Positions 516-37,893 of a stretch of DNA of 64,000 nt are shown piece by piece. The position numbers and the translations under genes are program-made. Positions within the stretch are counted from its first letter, which is position 1, and each line of letters starts with the position of its first letter. Source of the DNA: a virus; IMG/VR virus record IMGVR_UViG_3300035670_000177, positions 3,212 to 67,211 of that record, one strand, 5' to 3'. Under the pieces are notes generated by a model. That model was not told the origin of the DNA. It saw only the letters and a list, made by a program, of their open reading frames with translations, and made no database searches.

Positions 516-946
516 CTTGATGCCTCTAAATATTCTATAGTCTTTAGGAGGAGATTAGTATCATCTTTAAACTTACCAATACCTATATTGCACTCACAGC
601 ATAACAAACCTCTAACCACGCCTGTTGTATGACAATGGTCTACATTCAGAGTGTATAGAGGCGAGTCTCCACATATTGCACAAGAGTAGTTTTGAGAAAC
701 TAACATTTCATCATAGTCTTCTTGTGTCATACCATAGTTTTTAAAAAGATGATGTCCCTTTGCCGTAGCACGCATCTTCTCTTTTACTTCAGGATTATTC
801 TCGTATCGCATCTTTGTTTCTATTCTTCTACAAATCTTGCATTTCAGCCGTCTACGCTTCTCTGGTCTGTTCTTAGACCTATATTCACCAAAATAATCCA
901 AGGGTAAACACAAATTACAAGTGTTGCAAACTCTAGTTTCTTCCAA
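512..946 (-). CDS. endonuclease VII-type HNH homing endonuclease
   Basis: CAICG...LNVDHCH..G.VRGLLC..CN..IG motif; N-terminal CxxC pairs; TTG start with GAGG SD. Confidence 0.9.
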   Translation of the reverse strand: MEETRVCNTCNLCLPLDYFGEYRSKNRPEKRRRLKCKICRRIETKMRYENNPEVKEKMRATAKGHHLFKNYGMTQEDYDEMLVSQNYSCAICGDSPLYTLNVDHCHTTGVVRGLLCCECNIGIGKFKDDTNLLLKTIEYLEASR

Positions 947-959
947 ACTAAACCTCTTT

Positions 960-1115: not shown

Positions 1116-1144
1116 AGTATAACACCATTTATCAAACAGATCAA
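1116..1144 (-). promoter_or_regulatory. sigma70 promoter
   Basis: TTGATC-17-TATACT with extended TG. Confidence 0.7.
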
Positions 1145-1362
1145 GCACTTTCTTCATTTTCATAAGAAATACTTATGAATTCAAACTCTGTAAGATTTTG
1201 GAACTGATATTCATGCACTTCACAACTGTGAGGGTTGTAAGCAACACCTCTACAATCATGACACATATCTTCAGGAAGTCCGTCAGGACGACTCATCATC
1301 AGTTCTGTATCTGTTAGAAAGCAATCACATGCAATACATTTACTCATATTCCTCTTCATCAC
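1141..1362 (-). CDS. small Cys-rich (zinc-finger-like) protein
   Basis: CxxC...CxxC; the likely start is the third Met (MSKCIAC). Confidence 0.65.
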   Translation of the reverse strand: MMKRNMSKCIACDCFLTDTELMMSRPDGLPEDMCHDCRGVAYNPHSCEVHEYQFQNLTEFEFISISYENEESA

Positions 1363-1789: not shown

Positions 1790-2194
1790 TCAGAGAAATT
1801 TATTTTCTTCTTTATCAAAAATAGAGGATCCATTCCATTTAAAAGCCTTCTCTGTTTTCGATTCAAACATGTACCAAAACTCTAGTGCCAGTTGTTCATC
1901 AAAATCTTGTTTTGAATTTTTACCGTAGGTCTTGTTGTATAAAGAAGAAAGAGATTCTTTATCCCAAAGCAGAACGGCTTTCTCCATAGCATATGCTTGA
2001 TCTTCTGTTAGATTCTCAACAACCTTAAAAACATTGAATTTATATTTCCCATGTTTAAACAAATCCCTGTTCAGTTCAGCACAACTACTTCTTCCCGATG
2101 TGCAGTGTAACAATCTGTCCTTCTTCCCTTTTCCTACATAAACCAAAAGATCATTAACTACACAAGCATAAACATAATATTCTTTATTTATCAT
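1790..2194 (-). CDS. GIY-YIG family nuclease
   Basis: YYVY...VYVGKG...R..H, E in 'AYAMEK', and 'LYN' match the GIY-YIG motifs. Confidence 0.8.
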   Translation of the reverse strand: MINKEYYVYACVVNDLLVYVGKGKKDRLLHCTSGRSSCAELNRDLFKHGKYKFNVFKVVENLTEDQAYAMEKAVLLWDKESLSSLYNKTYGKNSKQDFDEQLALEFWYMFESKTEKAFKWNGSSIFDKEENKFL

Positions 2195-2259
2195 CTTTAT
2201 TATCTTATTTACTATTATTTCTTTAGTTATCTAATATTATTATTACTTAATCTTATATA

Positions 2260-2704
2260 CTTCCAAACTGAGTTCAGATAAGAACTTCAGATAAAAGAAA
2301 CCCTTACCCAGCCATACAAAGCTAACGCTCTGCCTAAGACTGAGTAGAGTACCTTATCTGATAGCTTTTATCTGCCTCTATCCGTTGTGAATAGATCTTC
2401 CAAACTTGAGACGAGATTAAGAGAGCCTTAGCTCTGTGGTCTGCACGGATAACACAGCCACCTTCAGGACAATGACACGTTCAAAGCATTGTCTTGCTAC
2501 ATTGCATATCGCACAGCCTTGACGGGCTGACAGGGAGGTAGTAGCTTTCAGTTTACCTTGCAGACTGTCCCATCACTCACAGTAGTCCGCTTGTTTAAGC
2601 TTATCGCTGCCAGGTCATGTAGGAAGCTTGTGTTTCCACAACACCACCACACTAGCCGACCAACATGCCGATTCACACAAAGCAGTGAACTCTTTTTAAC
2701 TAAC
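2260..2704 (-). ncRNA. structured RNA element copy 1 (promoter-driven, upstream of GIY-YIG)
   Basis: ORF-free; many stems; G-U pairs in the 3' hairpin (2300-2350) favour the minus strand; shares a core motif with 37532-37560. Confidence 0.65.
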
Positions 2705-2710
2705 CCATCT

Positions 2711-2739
2711 ATTATGACAGCTTTTTAAATAGATAGCAA
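2711..2739 (-). promoter_or_regulatory. extended -10 sigma70 promoter for RNA copy 1
   Basis: TTGCTA-17-CATAAT, TGn, followed by AGATG. Confidence 0.7.
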
Positions 2740-15372: not shown

Positions 15373-15636
15373 ATGAAACCCTTCATAGCTTTTTCTTTCA
15401 TTATAGCTTTAACAGCATGTGCCAATACACAACCTAGATTGAATGGAAGTGGTACACAATATCAAGCTTGGCAAACACAAGTATTAGAAGAATGTGCTAG
15501 GAAAGCAGCTACAATTACTGTACAATTAATGGAAGAAAAGGCTAAGAATGGAATTTATTTGAATGTTGAGCAGGGATATGTTATAAACAGATATGTATTA
15601 GAGCTTTGTTATAAGAGGAATGGGATTGTAATATGA
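15373..15636 (+). CDS. putative lipoprotein
   Basis: Signal peptide with lipobox LTAC. Confidence 0.65.
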   Translation: MKPFIAFSFIIALTACANTQPRLNGSGTQYQAWQTQVLEECARKAATITVQLMEEKAKNGIYLNVEQGYVINRYVLELCYKRNGIVI

Positions 15637-16877
15637 AAATTAACGGGGAAGAAGAAATGAGTAACGAAAATTTTGAACTGATTGACAGTTTTGGTAAGCC
15701 TATTAAGGCTTGGACTAAAGGCGTTCCCGTAGAAGAGGCAGCTAAACAGCAACTACGAAATATTGCAAGTATGCCTTTCATCCATGAACACGTTGCAGTG
15801 ATGCCAGATGTGCACTTTGGTATGGGAGCTACAGTAGGTAGTGTAATTGCTACAACAGGTGCTATTATCCCAGCGGCAGTGGGTGTAGACATTGGTTGCG
15901 GAATGATCGCACAAGAAACGTCGCTACGAGCAAAAGACTTACCTGATAATCTTGCAGCTATTCGTTCAGATATTGAGCGTGCAATTCCTCATGGATTTGT
16001 CACAACTCCGGGACGAGCAATTAAAGGTGGTTGGGAAGTTGCACCAAACTCTGTTATCTCTCGCTACCGTGGGCTTGCAGATCGATACGAAAAGATTGTA
16101 GAAAAGCACCCCAAGATTAATCACAAAAGCCCTCTAAAACAAATGGGAAGTCTTGGTGGAGGAAATCACTTTATTGAAATCTGCCTCGATGAACGTGATG
16201 TAGTTTGGGTTATGCTTCATTCGGGCAGTCGAGGGCCGGGAAACAAGATTGGTGAATACTTTATTGAAAAAGCAAAAGAGGAAATGCTTAAAAACAATGT
16301 ACACCTTCTAGACAAAGATTTGTCTTATCTTGTAGAAGGCTCAGAGCTTTTTGAGGACTATTGCGAAGCTGTTTCATGGGCACAAGATTATGCTATGGAA
16401 AACCGTCTACAGATGATGGAACTAACTTTGTCGGTCCTTCGTAAGCACCTGCCGTCTTTCACACTAGCAAAAAGCGCTGTTAATGCCCACCACAACTATG
16501 TTTCAAAAGAACACCACTTTGGATCGGATGTATTGGTAACTCGTAAAGGTGCAGTAAAAGCAGGACTTGGTGATCTTGGTATTATTCCAGGCTCCATGGG
16601 TGCTAAAAGCTTTATTGTAAAAGGTAAAGGTAATAAAGAATCTTTCTGCTCTTGTTCTCATGGTGCTGGTCGTAAAATGAGTCGTGGGGAAGCAAAGCGA
16701 ACGTTCACAGTAGAAGACCATGTAAAAGCAACCAAGGGTGTTGAGTGCCGTAAAGATAAAGACGTTATCGATGAAACTCCAGCAGCTTACAAGGATATTG
16801 ATGCTGTAATGCTTGCTCAAGCTGATTTGGTAGAGGTATTGCACACACTACGCCAAGTTCTTTGTGTTAAGGGGTAG
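15633..16877 (+). CDS. rtcB: RtcB RNA ligase
   Basis: MPDVH.G.G, GVDIGCG, GGGNHF.E, HSGSRG, HHN, PGSMG, HGAGR, YKDI. Alternative start at 15657. Confidence 0.97.
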   Translation: MKINGEEEMSNENFELIDSFGKPIKAWTKGVPVEEAAKQQLRNIASMPFIHEHVAVMPDVHFGMGATVGSVIATTGAIIPAAVGVDIGCGMIAQETSLRAKDLPDNLAAIRSDIERAIPHGFVTTPGRAIKGGWEVAPNSVISRYRGLADRYEKIVEKHPKINHKSPLKQMGSLGGGNHFIEICLDERDVVWVMLHSGSRGPGNKIGEYFIEKAKEEMLKNNVHLLDKDLSYLVEGSELFEDYCEAVSWAQDYAMENRLQMMELTLSVLRKHLPSFTLAKSAVNAHHNYVSKEHHFGSDVLVTRKGAVKAGLGDLGIIPGSMGAKSFIVKGKGNKESFCSCSHGAGRKMSRGEAKRTFTVEDHVKATKGVECRKDKDVIDETPAAYKDIDAVMLAQADLVEVLHTLRQVLCVKG

Positions 16878-36729: not shown

Positions 36730-37407
36730 TTAAAAATTGTAGCTTTTTGATTTCTTACGCTGTAGGTTTACCTTGTTCAGCACAATGCGGTACTCTGCAA
36801 CCTCGTGATGGTATTCAACAAATTTATTCAGAAGCTCTTGATCCTCCATAATCCAAACCGTTGCATTGTCACCAGGATGATGAATAACTAGAGATTCGCT
36901 AGAAATGTTGTGAATGTCGATAAAATCCTTGACAATTTCATTGAACTGTTTAGGGTAGTGGTCAATGTGACTGTCTTTCTTCCTGACCTTTAAGTTTGTT
37001 TCTGGACAAATCACGTAACCTTTCGAATCACCGAACTCATTAAAATAGGTATCTTTATAATCAATTGTCTGATCGTTTATAGCTGCACGGAAGATATCTT
37101 TAATCTTACCTTCTTTTGATTGTGAACTAATTGCTTTCACATAACTAAAATCAGTTACAGAACCATCAGCACGAAGTACATAGAATTGACGATTACGAGG
37201 ATTGATTAGGCAAGTACGAACACCAATCTTATACCCATCTCCTTGAGTCTTTTCATCATAACAATCATGCATTTTAAGGACATCGTTAATTACTTCAAAC
37301 CACTCACCATACAACTCAGAATTAAGTTTTGCATTGTTTAGTACAAACTTACAATAATTCTTTAGTGTTTGTTTAGTTTTAAATTCCATACCACCAGCTT
37401 CTACCAT
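36730..37407 (-). CDS. DCL (DUF3223) domain protein with an HNH-like C-terminal domain
   Basis: H....K..G...I.V...R.F...R.DG...DFSY.K (DCL signature); C-terminal CPET...HIDH.P...YH...N. Confidence 0.75.
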   Translation of the reverse strand: MVEAGGMEFKTKQTLKNYCKFVLNNAKLNSELYGEWFEVINDVLKMHDCYDEKTQGDGYKIGVRTCLINPRNRQFYVLRADGSVTDFSYVKAISSQSKEGKIKDIFRAAINDQTIDYKDTYFNEFGDSKGYVICPETNLKVRKKDSHIDHYPKQFNEIVKDFIDIHNISSESLVIHHPGDNATVWIMEDQELLNKFVEYHHEVAEYRIVLNKVNLQRKKSKSYNF

Positions 37408-37484
37408 CTCTTTACTCTCTTTTATATTTACTTAGGTTTGTTTTACATCTTTATTTGTTTACTTATTCTTTATATCTAATACAT

Positions 37485-37859
37485 ATCGTCTTAGATTAAA
37501 GCTTAGGAAAGATAGATTTATCCCAGCAATTGCCATACAAGAGTATCCTCTTGCCTAGACAAAAGCTTAATCTATCTCTCCTAAGCTGTCAACATCTCAT
37601 CGTCTTGAGTTGTCGCCTAGGCCATCATTAGGACGGAAGCTACCTGTTTGTAAGCATAGCCAAGATTGCTCATCATTCCACACGAAAAAGATTGACGTGC
37701 GTCACCGATCCCCTATAATGAGCTTCGATTCAGGTTGGCCGAGGATCTTCCCTCTTCATAGCCTTTAAGACAGAGCCGGTGAGTGATAGCTAATTAGCTA
37801 GCCCTAAAACGGGCAAATGACATTTCTCTCTCTGTCCGATACGCCATAAAACAACGTAG
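37485..37859 (-). ncRNA. structured RNA element copy 2 (promoter-driven, upstream of DCL/HNH)
   Basis: ORF-free; many stems; 19 bp basal stem 37500-37587 with G-U on minus; shares a core motif with copy 1. Confidence 0.65.
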
Positions 37860-37865
37860 GCATCT

Positions 37866-37893
37866 ATTCTATCACGAATCACCTAGAATACAA
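37866..37893 (-). promoter_or_regulatory. extended -10 sigma70 promoter for RNA copy 2
   Basis: TTGTAT-16-TAGAAT, TGn, followed by AGATG. Confidence 0.65.

What the first reader, a model, noticed from the sequence alone, without database searches (positions are those of the whole stretch)
2260..2410. Copy-specific direct repeats bracket the 3' hairpin in both RNAs (ColE1-like R-loop logic)
Seen: in copy 1, AGUUUGGAAG occurs just before (2397-2406) and just after (2260-2269) the hairpin region. In copy 2 a different word, AAGACGAU, occurs before (37599-37606) and after (37485-37492). In both RNAs the upstream copy overlaps a shared CUCAAG, and in copy 2 it overlaps the loop of CUCA-AGACGA-UGAG. 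The downstream copy abuts the A-rich tract. Established: ColE1 RNA II uses an upstream segment to pair with the downstream template strand and form a persistent primer hybrid for a PolA enzyme, and T4 origins are a promoter plus an unwinding element. Inference: the variable 8-10 nt word acts as an internal guide matching its own downstream DNA, consistent with R-loop priming or guide/target pairing.
Basis: partly seen in the sequence, partly recalled or inferred. Interest (0 to 1): 0.75.

Follow-up and report, generated by a model that had tools for sequence, protein, structure and literature searches.

The report
Twin words flank phage RNA hairpin
A previously undescribed structured leader RNA of Pseudomonas-type phages carries the same short, lineage-specific word on both sides of its last hairpin; the two copies change together across relatives, which points to a sequence-addressed function that is still unproven.

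Summary
Within the window alone they are not beyond chance. Comparison with relatives makes them real: I found 26 different words of 8-13 nt, each present twice in its own element, always after a conserved CYC(A)/CYC anchor 5' and 3' of a conserved long hairpin. One further locus matches at 10 of 12 positions and one has decayed. The elements are a structured, sigma-70-driven leader RNA of about 300-450 nt with no Rfam match. It occurs in over 120 Pakpunavirus records (PAK_P1, PAK_P4, JG004, phiMK), in many uncultured phages, and next to integrases in three Pseudomonas chromosomal islands. The words look single-stranded. They have no complementary partner in the RNA, its flanks or the phage genome, and they do not track the adjacent zinc-ribbon gene. 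An orientation-corrected GC-skew switch falls at 3 of 3 "copy-B" loci and at 0 of 5 "copy-A" loci, and two genomes have the switch without the RNA. Best guess (0.3): the words pair with the template DNA of their own locus. Rivals are a host target, processing sites, or DNA-level repeats.

The parts
2711..2739 (-). sigma-70-like promoter of RNA copy 1 (TTGCTA, 17 nt spacer, CATAAT, with TG before the -10)
   Evidence: 9 of 12 matches, TG present; sequence. The transcription start near 2704 is inferred from it.
2260..2704 (-). RNA copy 1 (type 1, about 445 nt): 5' multi-helix domain plus 3' module
   Evidence: Fold z-score -2.7. 78-91% identical homologs in G001-G003 whose conservation ends right after word 2. 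No Rfam match. A 349-nt contig from an RNA-library run covers 2347-2695 with 1 difference.
2397..2410 (-). anchor CTCA plus upstream word AGTTTGGAAG (word 1, copy 1)
2273..2374 (-). long hairpin of copy 1 with the conserved core GTCTTAGGCA-hairpin-TTGTATGGC
   Evidence: Inverted repeats I5 and I7. Model R1 hit at 2285-2364, 76.5 bits. Pair covariation.
2260..2272 (-). anchor CTC plus downstream word AGTTTGGAAG (word 2, copy 1)
2195..2259 (-). A-rich, C-poor unstructured tract after word 2
   Evidence: Sequence. GC 0.245 for 2101-2300.
1790..2194 (-). GIY-YIG-like small ORF. I read it as a free-standing homing endonuclease gene inserted after the RNA; the close relative L053 does not have it at this place.
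   Evidence: Weak Pfam hits to GIY-YIG and LEM-3_GIY-YIG, E 0.03-0.06. A different downstream sequence in L053.
1141..1362 (-). small zinc-ribbon protein, the conserved first gene behind copy-A-type RNAs
   Evidence: phrog_10364. Homologs lie downstream of 16 RNA loci.
37866..37893 (-). promoter-like site of RNA copy 2 (TTGTAT, 16 nt spacer, TAGAAT, with TG before the -10)
   Evidence: Read from the sequence. The scan did not list it (its -35 matches only 3 of 6), so this is my reading.
37485..37860 (-). RNA copy 2 (type 2, about 375 nt)
   Evidence: Fold z-score -3.8. It aligns with 17 type-2/3 homologs: 50 consensus pairs, 34 with changes on both sides. No Rfam match.
37599..37609 (-). anchor CTC plus upstream word AAGACGAT (word 1, copy 2)
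37500..37587 (-). long hairpin of copy 2 with core GTCTAGGCA-hairpin-TTGTATGGC
   Evidence: 19-nt arms, 95% complementary (I1). R1 hit at 37506-37584, 54 bits.
37485..37494 (-). anchor CT plus downstream word AAGACGAT (word 2, copy 2)
37408..37484 (-). A-rich tract after word 2 of copy 2
   Evidence: sequence
36730..37407 (-). DUF3223-domain ORF with an HNH-like C-terminal part (the HNH reading is mine), directly behind copy 2
   Evidence: PF11523, E 3e-10; phrog_28887

Best explanation
Shown: the two loci are paralogs of a new family of structured leader RNAs, each transcribed from an early sigma-70-type promoter. The common 3' module is a long conserved hairpin. Its 5' and 3' feet each carry a conserved CYC(A)/CYC anchor followed by the same 8-13 nt word. 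The word is lineage-specific and unpaired, and selection keeps its two copies identical. Inferred (mechanism, about 0.3): the words are address sequences that work by base pairing with a strand that is not part of the RNA. The only perfect complement I found is the template DNA strand of the locus itself. So the most likely single reading is that the hairpin holds the upstream word next to the just-transcribed downstream word, where the upstream word pairs with the template strand. That would seed or stabilise an RNA:DNA hybrid at the edge of the AT-rich tract. Whether the hybrid primes DNA synthesis, as in ColE1, T4 oriF/oriG or T7, or instead controls passage of RNA polymerase into the early operon, is not decided.
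For: Co-variation: 8 of 8 anchored bases are identical in 14 of 14 representatives, against a mean of 3.3 of 8 in 168 unrelated cross pairs. There are 26 distinct words in all. Near relatives show paired small changes: a T deletion in both copies (window copy 1 against L053 and L059); G to A in both (L053 against L054); GA to AG in both (L054 against L076); G/A in both (window copy 2 against L058); C/T in both (L056 against L131). The anchor also changes in both copies, to CCC (L080 and the islands) or CTG (L118, L127). The words are no more self-pairing than shuffled words: mean z -0.33, 0.08 and 0.16, and the downstream unit has zero folding energy in 10 of 21. There is no cis partner. Duplex energies with the element's own region equal those with other genomes' regions for the upstream 330 nt and downstream 220 nt, the hairpin tip and the whole inter-word region (own region ranks 13.8 of 21 on average). 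The exact word occurs only twice per genome in 5 of 5 genomes. An orientation-corrected GC-skew switch lies at copy-B-type loci in 3 of 3 genomes: G011 rank 1 of 92, G010 rank 3 of 86, G004 rank 6 of 97. The phage has a family-A DNA polymerase, a primase-helicase and a 5'-3' exonuclease. In three Pseudomonas islands the RNA follows the integrase and is followed by at least 200 nt of AT-rich sequence, 36-41% GC in 250-nt bins to the end of the fetched loci.
Against: The skew switch is not at any of 5 copy-A-type loci (ranks 47, 26, 81, 52 and 20). G003 and G013 have the switch near 14 kb. In G003 no such RNA is found there (best R1 score 9.7 bits with filters off); in G013 the whole-genome R1 search found only the copy at 71 kb. 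By my arithmetic, the G003 place is the one syntenic with window copy 2. So if the switch marks the origin, the origin does not need this RNA. The nascent downstream word already pairs with the same DNA, so the role of a second copy is unexplained. The words are short for a stable hybrid. Words stay unchanged over diverged clade members whose stems have co-varied (AGCGTCATGAG in L056, L064, L077, L081 and L089). The two Pakpunavirus paralogs share ATCTGCAT. Both facts fit a common trans partner at least as well. In G011 the number of sites that can pair with the word (GU allowed) slightly exceeds all 20 shuffles (33 against a maximum of 31).
Confidence: 0.3

Rival explanations
1. Duplicated seed for a trans target. 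The two single-stranded words are two equal binding sites for one host-encoded, or otherwise external, RNA or DNA. The word follows the target, which differs between host lineages.
For: The words are unpaired, and no partner was found in the RNA or the phage genome. A word stays fixed within a clade while stems co-vary. Both paralogs of Pakpunavirus share ATCTGCAT although their stems differ. All 123 Pakpunavirus records match this stretch at 90-100% identity.
Against: The two copies in the window carry unrelated words (AGTTTGGAAG, AAGACGAT), as do those in G004 and G014. This model needs both copies to change after each change of target. No host sequence was available to test it.
Confidence: 0.2
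2. Twin processing or protein-recognition sites. A nuclease or RNA-binding factor acts at the CYC(A)|word junction on both sides, releasing the hairpin or joining the flanks, possibly with the phage RNA ligase.
For: A conserved anchor sits beside each word in the same register in nearly all homologs. The window phage encodes RtcB at 15633-16877. Several hairpin-proximal sequences (GATAGA/TCTATC, TTAGG/TAT) are conserved like protein sites.
Against: A protein reading 26 unrelated words is unlikely. The words do not follow the adjacent zinc-ribbon protein: window against L053 is 30% protein identity with nearly the same word, and L056 against L162 is 72% identity with unrelated words. The four laid runs show no joint across the hairpin, but those are contigs, which cannot show rare forms.
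Confidence: 0.15
3. DNA-level repeats. The two roughly 20-bp units are binding sites (iteron-like) or crossover sites for a DNA-binding protein or recombinase, and merely lie inside an RNA gene.
For: The units are followed by an AT-rich tract. They are near-identical at both loci of Pakpunavirus. Copy-B loci lie at the skew switch. In bacterial islands the RNA lies next to serine or tyrosine integrases.
Against: There is a constant one-base register shift between anchor and word in the two copies. Near-identical relatives show paired single-base changes. No recombinase was seen among the 10 large window ORFs scanned. No deletion allele was seen in the contigs. The word is not repeated at the island edge within the fetched 8-kb loci. 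The same island RNA sits beside two unrelated integrase types.
Confidence: 0.12
4. Passive relic or chance: a target-site duplication of a MITE-like hairpin insertion, or a random repeat.
For: The anatomy (a hairpin of about 100-130 nt between 8-13 nt direct repeats) resembles a MITE with a target-site duplication. In the window alone the repeats are within chance (my arithmetic).
Against: The copies are perfectly identical in 26 word classes despite deep divergence of the rest. Paired changes occur within orthologous lineages. The hairpin arms do not abut the repeats as terminal inverted repeats would.
Confidence: 0.03

Closest known systems
ColE1 RNA II preprimer (recalled from Masukata and Tomizawa, Cell 1990; not read here)
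   Same: A promoter-driven, folded RNA of several hundred nt. An upstream segment has the same sequence as the RNA made at the hybrid site, so it can pair with the template strand there. A family-A polymerase is present.
   Different: No sequence or Rfam relation. The repeated word here is arbitrary and lineage-specific rather than a G-run. No antisense RNA I was found. RNase H cutting and priming were not tested. 5 of 8 loci are not at the GC-skew switch.
Phage T4 oriF/oriG and the T7 primary origin (recalled)
   Same: A promoter followed by an AT-rich unwinding tract. Two loci per genome. The transcript could prime leading-strand synthesis.
   Different: Those origins need no large structured RNA and no repeated word. 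Nothing here shows initiation.
Satellite phage P4 immunity leader: seqA - CI RNA (seqB) - seqC (recalled)
   Same: The leader of an early operon in a mobile element. Two similar sequences flank a stable processed stem-loop RNA and co-vary between elements.
   Different: In P4 the flanked RNA carries seqB, which is complementary to both repeats. Here the inter-word region is no more complementary to its own word than to foreign words (own rank 13.8 of 21).
Lambda nutL/nutR and HK022 putL/putR (recalled)
   Same: One element behind each of two early promoters, acting in cis on the transcript. The specificity elements are identical within a phage and differ between phages.
   Different: nut and put elements are short hairpins. 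The words here are not hairpin-forming beyond chance. They differ between the two copies in the window, G004 and G014.
IS110 bridge RNA / IS1111 seekRNA (recalled)
   Same: Short stretches inside a non-coding RNA are identical to nearby DNA. That kind of clue first revealed RNA-guided DNA recognition in those elements.
   Different: No DEDD/serine IS110-type recombinase lies beside the RNA. In the islands the neighbours are ordinary serine or tyrosine integrases, and the word is not found at the island edge.

Membership tests
Any Rfam 15 family | covariance-model match at gathering score, or a credible sub-threshold match | tested here: not met
   0 matches at gathering score in the whole window. 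Only noise at E up to 10 at both loci. Only tRNAs and noise in 5 homologous loci.
ColE1-type RNA II primer | an upstream RNA segment able to pair with the template strand at the hybrid or origin site | tested here: met
   Word 1 equals word 2 in 26 word classes.
ColE1-type RNA II primer | persistent hybrid, RNase H cut and polymerase extension at that site | not testable with these tools
   Needs DRIP or RNase H assays and mapping of RNA-DNA junctions.
ColE1-type RNA II primer | the locus is the replication origin | tested here: inconclusive
   The orientation-corrected GC-skew switch lies at 3 of 3 copy-B loci and 0 of 5 copy-A loci. G003 and G013 have a switch without the RNA.
P4 CI RNA / seqA-seqB-seqC leader | direct repeats flanking a stable stem-loop RNA in an early leader | tested here: met
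P4 CI RNA / seqA-seqB-seqC leader | a sequence inside the flanked RNA that is complementary to both repeats | tested here: not met
   Duplex energy with the own region -5.26 against -5.82 for cross-genome pairs; own region ranks 13.8 of 21. For the hairpin tip, -4.75 against -4.50.
MITE with target-site duplication | terminal inverted repeats abutting the direct repeats, with repeats free to decay independently | tested here: not met
   Linkers of 0-25 nt lie between words and hairpin arms. Paired changes keep the copies identical.
nut/put-type antitermination site | the specificity element is a small hairpin | tested here: not met
   The word units fold no better than shuffled words.
Type III toxin-antitoxin RNA repeats | tandem repeat units followed by an endoribonuclease toxin gene | tested here: not met
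   Only the unit of about 20-25 nt is repeated, and what follows word 2 is unlike what follows word 1. The downstream genes are a zinc-ribbon protein or homing endonucleases.
IS110 bridge RNA / seekRNA | an adjacent IS110-type recombinase and a guide matching the element's flanks | tested here: not met
   No such gene near the loci. The island neighbours are large serine or tyrosine integrases, and there is no third word copy in the 8-kb loci.

The most novel reading that the evidence does not exclude
This is a portable, RNA-addressed initiation module. A leader RNA carries an internal copy of the DNA word at its own 3' boundary. Held in place by the hairpin, that copy seeds an R-loop which the phage's T7-like replisome, or a satellite-like island exploiting it, uses as a start site. 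The word acts as a private address that keeps co-infecting relatives from cross-using each other's sites.
Probability: 0.2. Interest if true: 0.9.

Novelty: categorically new. Interest (0 to 1): 0.8.

Why it matters
The RNA sits behind an early promoter in a group of phages that is widely isolated and studied (PAK_P1, PAK_P2, PAK_P4, JG004, C11, K8, phiMK and about 120 other records). Yet the database records annotate it as nothing, or as spurious small ORFs. It is far better conserved than the genes around it: the RNA is 91% identical between the window and G003, while the neighbouring zinc-ribbon proteins are 30% identical. A direct repeat that co-varies without any complementary partner is not how RNA structure normally shows itself. 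It is the kind of signal that revealed RNA-guided DNA recognition in other mobile elements. If the words address DNA, this would be a new way for a virus to mark a start site or a control point. If they address a host molecule, it is a new class of phage regulatory RNA with a programmable seed. Either way the question becomes directly testable in laboratory phage-host pairs, by comparing single word mutants with compensatory double mutants.

Tried and rejected
1. A cis RNA partner for the word. I searched for contiguous complements over the whole RNA. I then compared duplex energies within a genome against cross-genome pairs for the hairpin tip, the upstream 330 nt and downstream 220 nt and the inter-word region. 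None showed a signal.
2. A partner elsewhere in the phage genome. Exact and 1-mismatch scans covered 5 genomes. GU-tolerant scans of G004, G011 and the window were compared with shuffled words. There was no clear enrichment; G011 gave 33 sites against a shuffle maximum of 31.
3. Local hairpins, or a word1-word2 closing duplex, as the reason for identity. Rejected.
4. A third copy of AGTTTGGAAG at the start of the Endo VII-like ORF (940-949). Relatives have no such copy at a comparable gene start, so I treat it as chance.
5. Translational bypass or a coding reading. Stops occur in all frames shortly after both words in the window, the word spacing is not in frame across homologs, and no conserved ORF is present.
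6. Co-evolution with the zinc-ribbon protein. Rejected.
7. The word at the island boundary. Not found within the fetched 8-kb loci.
8. Sequencing runs. Only contigs were served. The RNA-library runs hold relatives, and nothing about starts, ends or expression can be concluded. No joint across the hairpin was listed and no cover gap is interpreted.
9. The search for related loci with the two downstream proteins found no relatives.
10. PAK_P3 (Nankokuvirus) has no R1 hit in the parts loaded, 1-50000 and 78000-88097. The stretch 50001-77999 was not loaded.
Supplements of the PAK_P3/PAK_P4 transcriptome papers, which may list transcript ends over this locus, could not be read.

Full report
What is at the coordinates. 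On the - strand the window holds two non-coding stretches: about 2704-2260 (copy 1) and about 37860-37485 (copy 2). Each lies behind a sigma-70-like promoter at a junction of divergent transcription. In copy 1 the 10-mer AGTTTGGAAG lies at 2397-2406 and 2260-2269 (D8). In copy 2 the 8-mer AAGACGAT lies at 37599-37606 and 37485-37492. Taken alone this is not beyond chance. By my arithmetic the expected numbers of such pairs are about 0.2 and 2.3. One search lists other 9-10 nt repeats. The 8-mer occurs 9 times in the window, and the 10-mer occurs a third time at 940-949.

The elements are RNAs of one family, and the family is not catalogued. Both stretches fold better than all 100 shuffles, with z-scores of -2.7 and -3.8. 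Rfam 15 gives nothing at gathering score in the whole window and only noise at E up to 10. blastn does not connect the two copies. They do share a 3' module, a long hairpin with the core GTCT(T)AGGCA-small hairpin-TTGTATGGC. Pattern scans of IMG/VR with this core and with a 5' motif brought in many homologs. A covariance model of the core (R1) separates true from false hits.

On 21 sequences the three helices of the core are 81% paired, against 71% in shuffles (0 of 500 shuffles reach the observed value), and 10 pairs change on both sides. On 18 full-length type-2/3 RNAs, RNAalifold finds 50 pairs, of which 34 have compensatory double changes, and it leaves both words unpaired. Invariant G-U pairs fix the strand.

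The co-variation test. In every true homolog the word differs but occurs twice in the same places: 5' of the long hairpin after CYC plus one extra base (mostly CTCA), and 3' of it after CYC. tabulates 21 loci. At anchored positions the two copies are identical at 8 of 8 bases in 14 of 14 representatives with different words. Unrelated cross-genome pairs average 3.3 of 8, and none of 168 reaches 8.

A looser statistic does not discriminate. The longest common substring in 80-nt windows gave 8-12 for same-genome pairs, but 8 or more in about 8% of cross pairs. The evidence therefore rests on position, not on length.

Later scans raised the number of distinct perfect words to 26. Near relatives show paired small changes: a T deletion in both copies (window copy 1 against L053 and L059), G to A in both (L054), GA to AG in both (L076), G/A in both (window copy 2 against L058) and C/T in both (L056 against L131). 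The anchor itself changes in both copies, to CCC in L080 and the bacterial islands and to CTG in L118 and L127. There are two exceptions: L156 has 10 of 12 identical, and L141 has a decayed repeat. L128 keeps a word pair around a different hairpin that R1 does not recognise.

Where the family occurs. The window is an IMG/VR contig of 67 kb, estimated 76% complete. Its DNA polymerase is 59% identical to those of Pakpunavirus phages. The type-3 RNA of phiMK matches 123 Pseudomonas phage records at 90-100% identity. In distant mode it matches 179 records, including PAK_P1, PAK_P2, PAK_P4, JG004, C11 and K8, and more weakly P. syringae and P. fluorescens phages of about 98 kb.

In the annotated records the stretch is blank or carries small hypothetical ORFs. 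In PAK_P4 a 'putative promoter_11' ends where the RNA starts, followed by gp171 and then tRNA genes. In phiMK the RNA heads the tRNA cluster. A small zinc-ribbon protein (phrog_10364) is the conserved first gene behind 16 of the roughly 30 loci compared. In the window it sits further downstream, behind a GIY-YIG-like ORF that the close relative L053 lacks at that place. Copy 2 is followed by a DUF3223 ORF, and in L127 a GIY-YIG ORF starts 7 nt after word 2. I read these as free-standing homing endonuclease genes that have settled beside a highly conserved RNA gene.

Six complete or near-complete genomes have one copy (G001, G002, G003, G009, G010, G013). G004, G011, G012, G014 and the window have two, about 32-36 kb apart. 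The parts of PAK_P3 that I loaded have none.

A scan of bacterial genomes found the type-1 RNA, with word ATTTTGAT and anchors CCCA/CCC, in three Pseudomonas chromosomes. In each it lies directly downstream of an integrase at the edge of a low-GC island. The integrase is a large serine recombinase in two and a tyrosine integrase in the third.

What the words are not. They are not kept alike by a shared complementary partner in cis. No conserved complement exists anywhere in the RNA. Same-genome duplex energies equal cross-genome ones for the hairpin tip, the upstream 330 nt and downstream 220 nt and the whole inter-word region, where the own region ranks 13.8 of 21 on average. This rules out a P4-like seqA/seqB/seqC arrangement and a simple riboswitch-type alternative pairing.

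They are not small hairpins or a closing duplex beyond chance. The downstream unit has zero folding energy in 10 of 21 cases, so the words look selected to be open. The exact word occurs only twice per genome in 5 of 5 genomes. GU-tolerant complements in G004, G011 and the window are about as frequent as for shuffled words; G011 is slightly above its 20 shuffles. The words do not follow the zinc-ribbon protein. The third AGTTTGGAAG at 940-949 has no counterpart in relatives.

Bearing on the R-loop reading. The only perfect complement I could find for a word is the template strand of its own locus. The locus has a strong promoter, a folded RNA and an AT-rich tract, and the phage has a family-A polymerase, a primase-helicase and an exonuclease. 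All this fits the ColE1 or T4 logic.

I fitted GC skew per kb as gene orientation plus one switch point in six complete genomes. The best switch falls at copy B in G011 (rank 1 of 92), within 1 kb of the single type-2 copy in G010 (rank 3 of 86), and within 1-4 kb of copy B in G004 (rank 6 of 97). In G004, genes on both sides of copy B mostly run the same way. None of the five copy-A-type loci is near the switch (ranks 47, 26, 81, 52 and 20).

In G003 and G013 the switch lies near 14 kb. In G003 no R1-type RNA exists there: the best score is 9.7 bits with filters off, and the only ORF-free gap is 215 nt. In G013 the whole-genome R1 search found only the copy at 71 kb. By my arithmetic from the coordinates, that place in G003 is syntenic with window copy 2. 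So the RNA is often at the hub where skew turns, but the turn does not depend on it.

The PaP1 paper (passages seen) places a putative origin at the GC-skew minimum near the genome end. That is where copy A lies in PAK_P1 coordinates, and the raw minimum in G011 is indeed at copy A. That minimum coincides with a change of gene orientation, however. The skew evidence is therefore mixed, and no R-loop or initiation has been measured.

Other evidence. In a run filed as transcriptomic RNA-seq, a 349-nt contig equals window 2347-2695 with one difference, while contigs of the same run over neighbouring genes differ at 17-46 positions. This shows strong conservation of the RNA gene in a relative. It does not show transcription, because contigs of an RNA library can hold DNA. 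No joint across the hairpin was listed, which proves nothing about rare forms.

A word stays fixed across clade members whose stems have co-varied (AGCGTCATGAG in L056, L064, L077, L081 and L089). The two Pakpunavirus paralogs share ATCTGCAT although their hairpin stems differ. This fits a common trans partner. It also fits slow change under a rule that requires two simultaneous mutations.

Literature. I searched for PAK_P3 plus non-coding RNA, Pakpunavirus plus RNA-seq or noncoding, Pakpunavirus plus origin of replication, and JG004/PAK_P1/PaP1 plus ncRNA, structured RNA or riboswitch. I read passages of PMC10914365, the PAK_P3 Hi-C preprint, PMC5563952 and PMC3652863. None describes this RNA. 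Their supplements were closed and may list transcript ends here. Comparisons with ColE1, T4, T7, P4, lambda, HK022 and IS110 rest on my recall.

Verdict. Its mechanism is open. I put about 0.3 on pairing of the upstream word with the template DNA of the downstream word, 0.2 on an external (host) target, 0.15 on twin processing or recognition sites, 0.12 on DNA-level repeats and 0.03 on a passive relic.

Noticed in passing
window 1790-2194 (-), 36730-37407 (-); L127 just after word 2: Endonuclease-like ORFs sit directly behind the RNAs: GIY-YIG-like in the window and in L127, and DUF3223 with an HNH-like tail behind copy 2. The close relative L053 lacks the GIY-YIG ORF at this place. They look like free-standing homing endonuclease genes using the conserved RNA gene as a landing zone.
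   Followed up: partly
window 2560-2580 (-) and 37780-37790 (-): The most conserved loop of type-1 RNAs (GTGAGTGAT in CTGTGAGTGATGGGACAG) is the exact complement of the invariant ATCACTCAC motif of type-2/3 RNAs. In the window both types are present, so the two RNAs could pair over 9 nt. This is unexplained.
   Followed up: no
window 940-949 (-): A third exact AGTTTGGAAG overlaps the TTG start of the Endo VII-like ORF 512-946. Relatives G003 and G009 have no comparable copy at a gene start, so it is probably chance.
   Followed up: yes
window, 9 places: AAGACGAT occurs 9 times against 2.2 expected from dinucleotide shuffles (0 of 100 shuffles reach 9). This may be a codon effect (GAA GAC GAT).
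   Followed up: no
window 15633-16877 (+): A phage-encoded RtcB-type RNA ligase (phrog_1075, E 3e-147), although ARAGORN finds no tRNA gene in the window.
   Followed up: no
L182 (PAK_P1-length record G012, copy B): The upstream word region carries an insertion of about 20 nt (ATACATATATGTAT-type palindrome) that creates an extra copy of the word. phiMK copy B (L183) lacks it.
   Followed up: no
L203, L204, L209 (Pseudomonas chromosomes): The type-1 RNA lies immediately downstream of an integrase at the edge of a low-GC island, and the sequence after it stays AT-rich (36-41% GC in 250-nt bins) to the end of the fetched loci. The integrase is a serine recombinase in two islands and a tyrosine integrase in one. 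This may be a prophage or satellite-like element that shares the phage leader RNA.
   Followed up: partly
G003 about 13-14 kb, G013 about 14 kb: The orientation-corrected GC-skew switch lies at a divergent junction that has no R1-type RNA. In G003 this place is syntenic with window copy 2.
   Followed up: partly
window copy 1 against L053: RNA and zinc-ribbon gene: The RNA is 91% identical between the two phages, but the zinc-ribbon proteins behind it are only 30% identical. The window protein resembles that of L078 instead. This points to mosaic exchange around a conserved RNA gene.
   Followed up: partly
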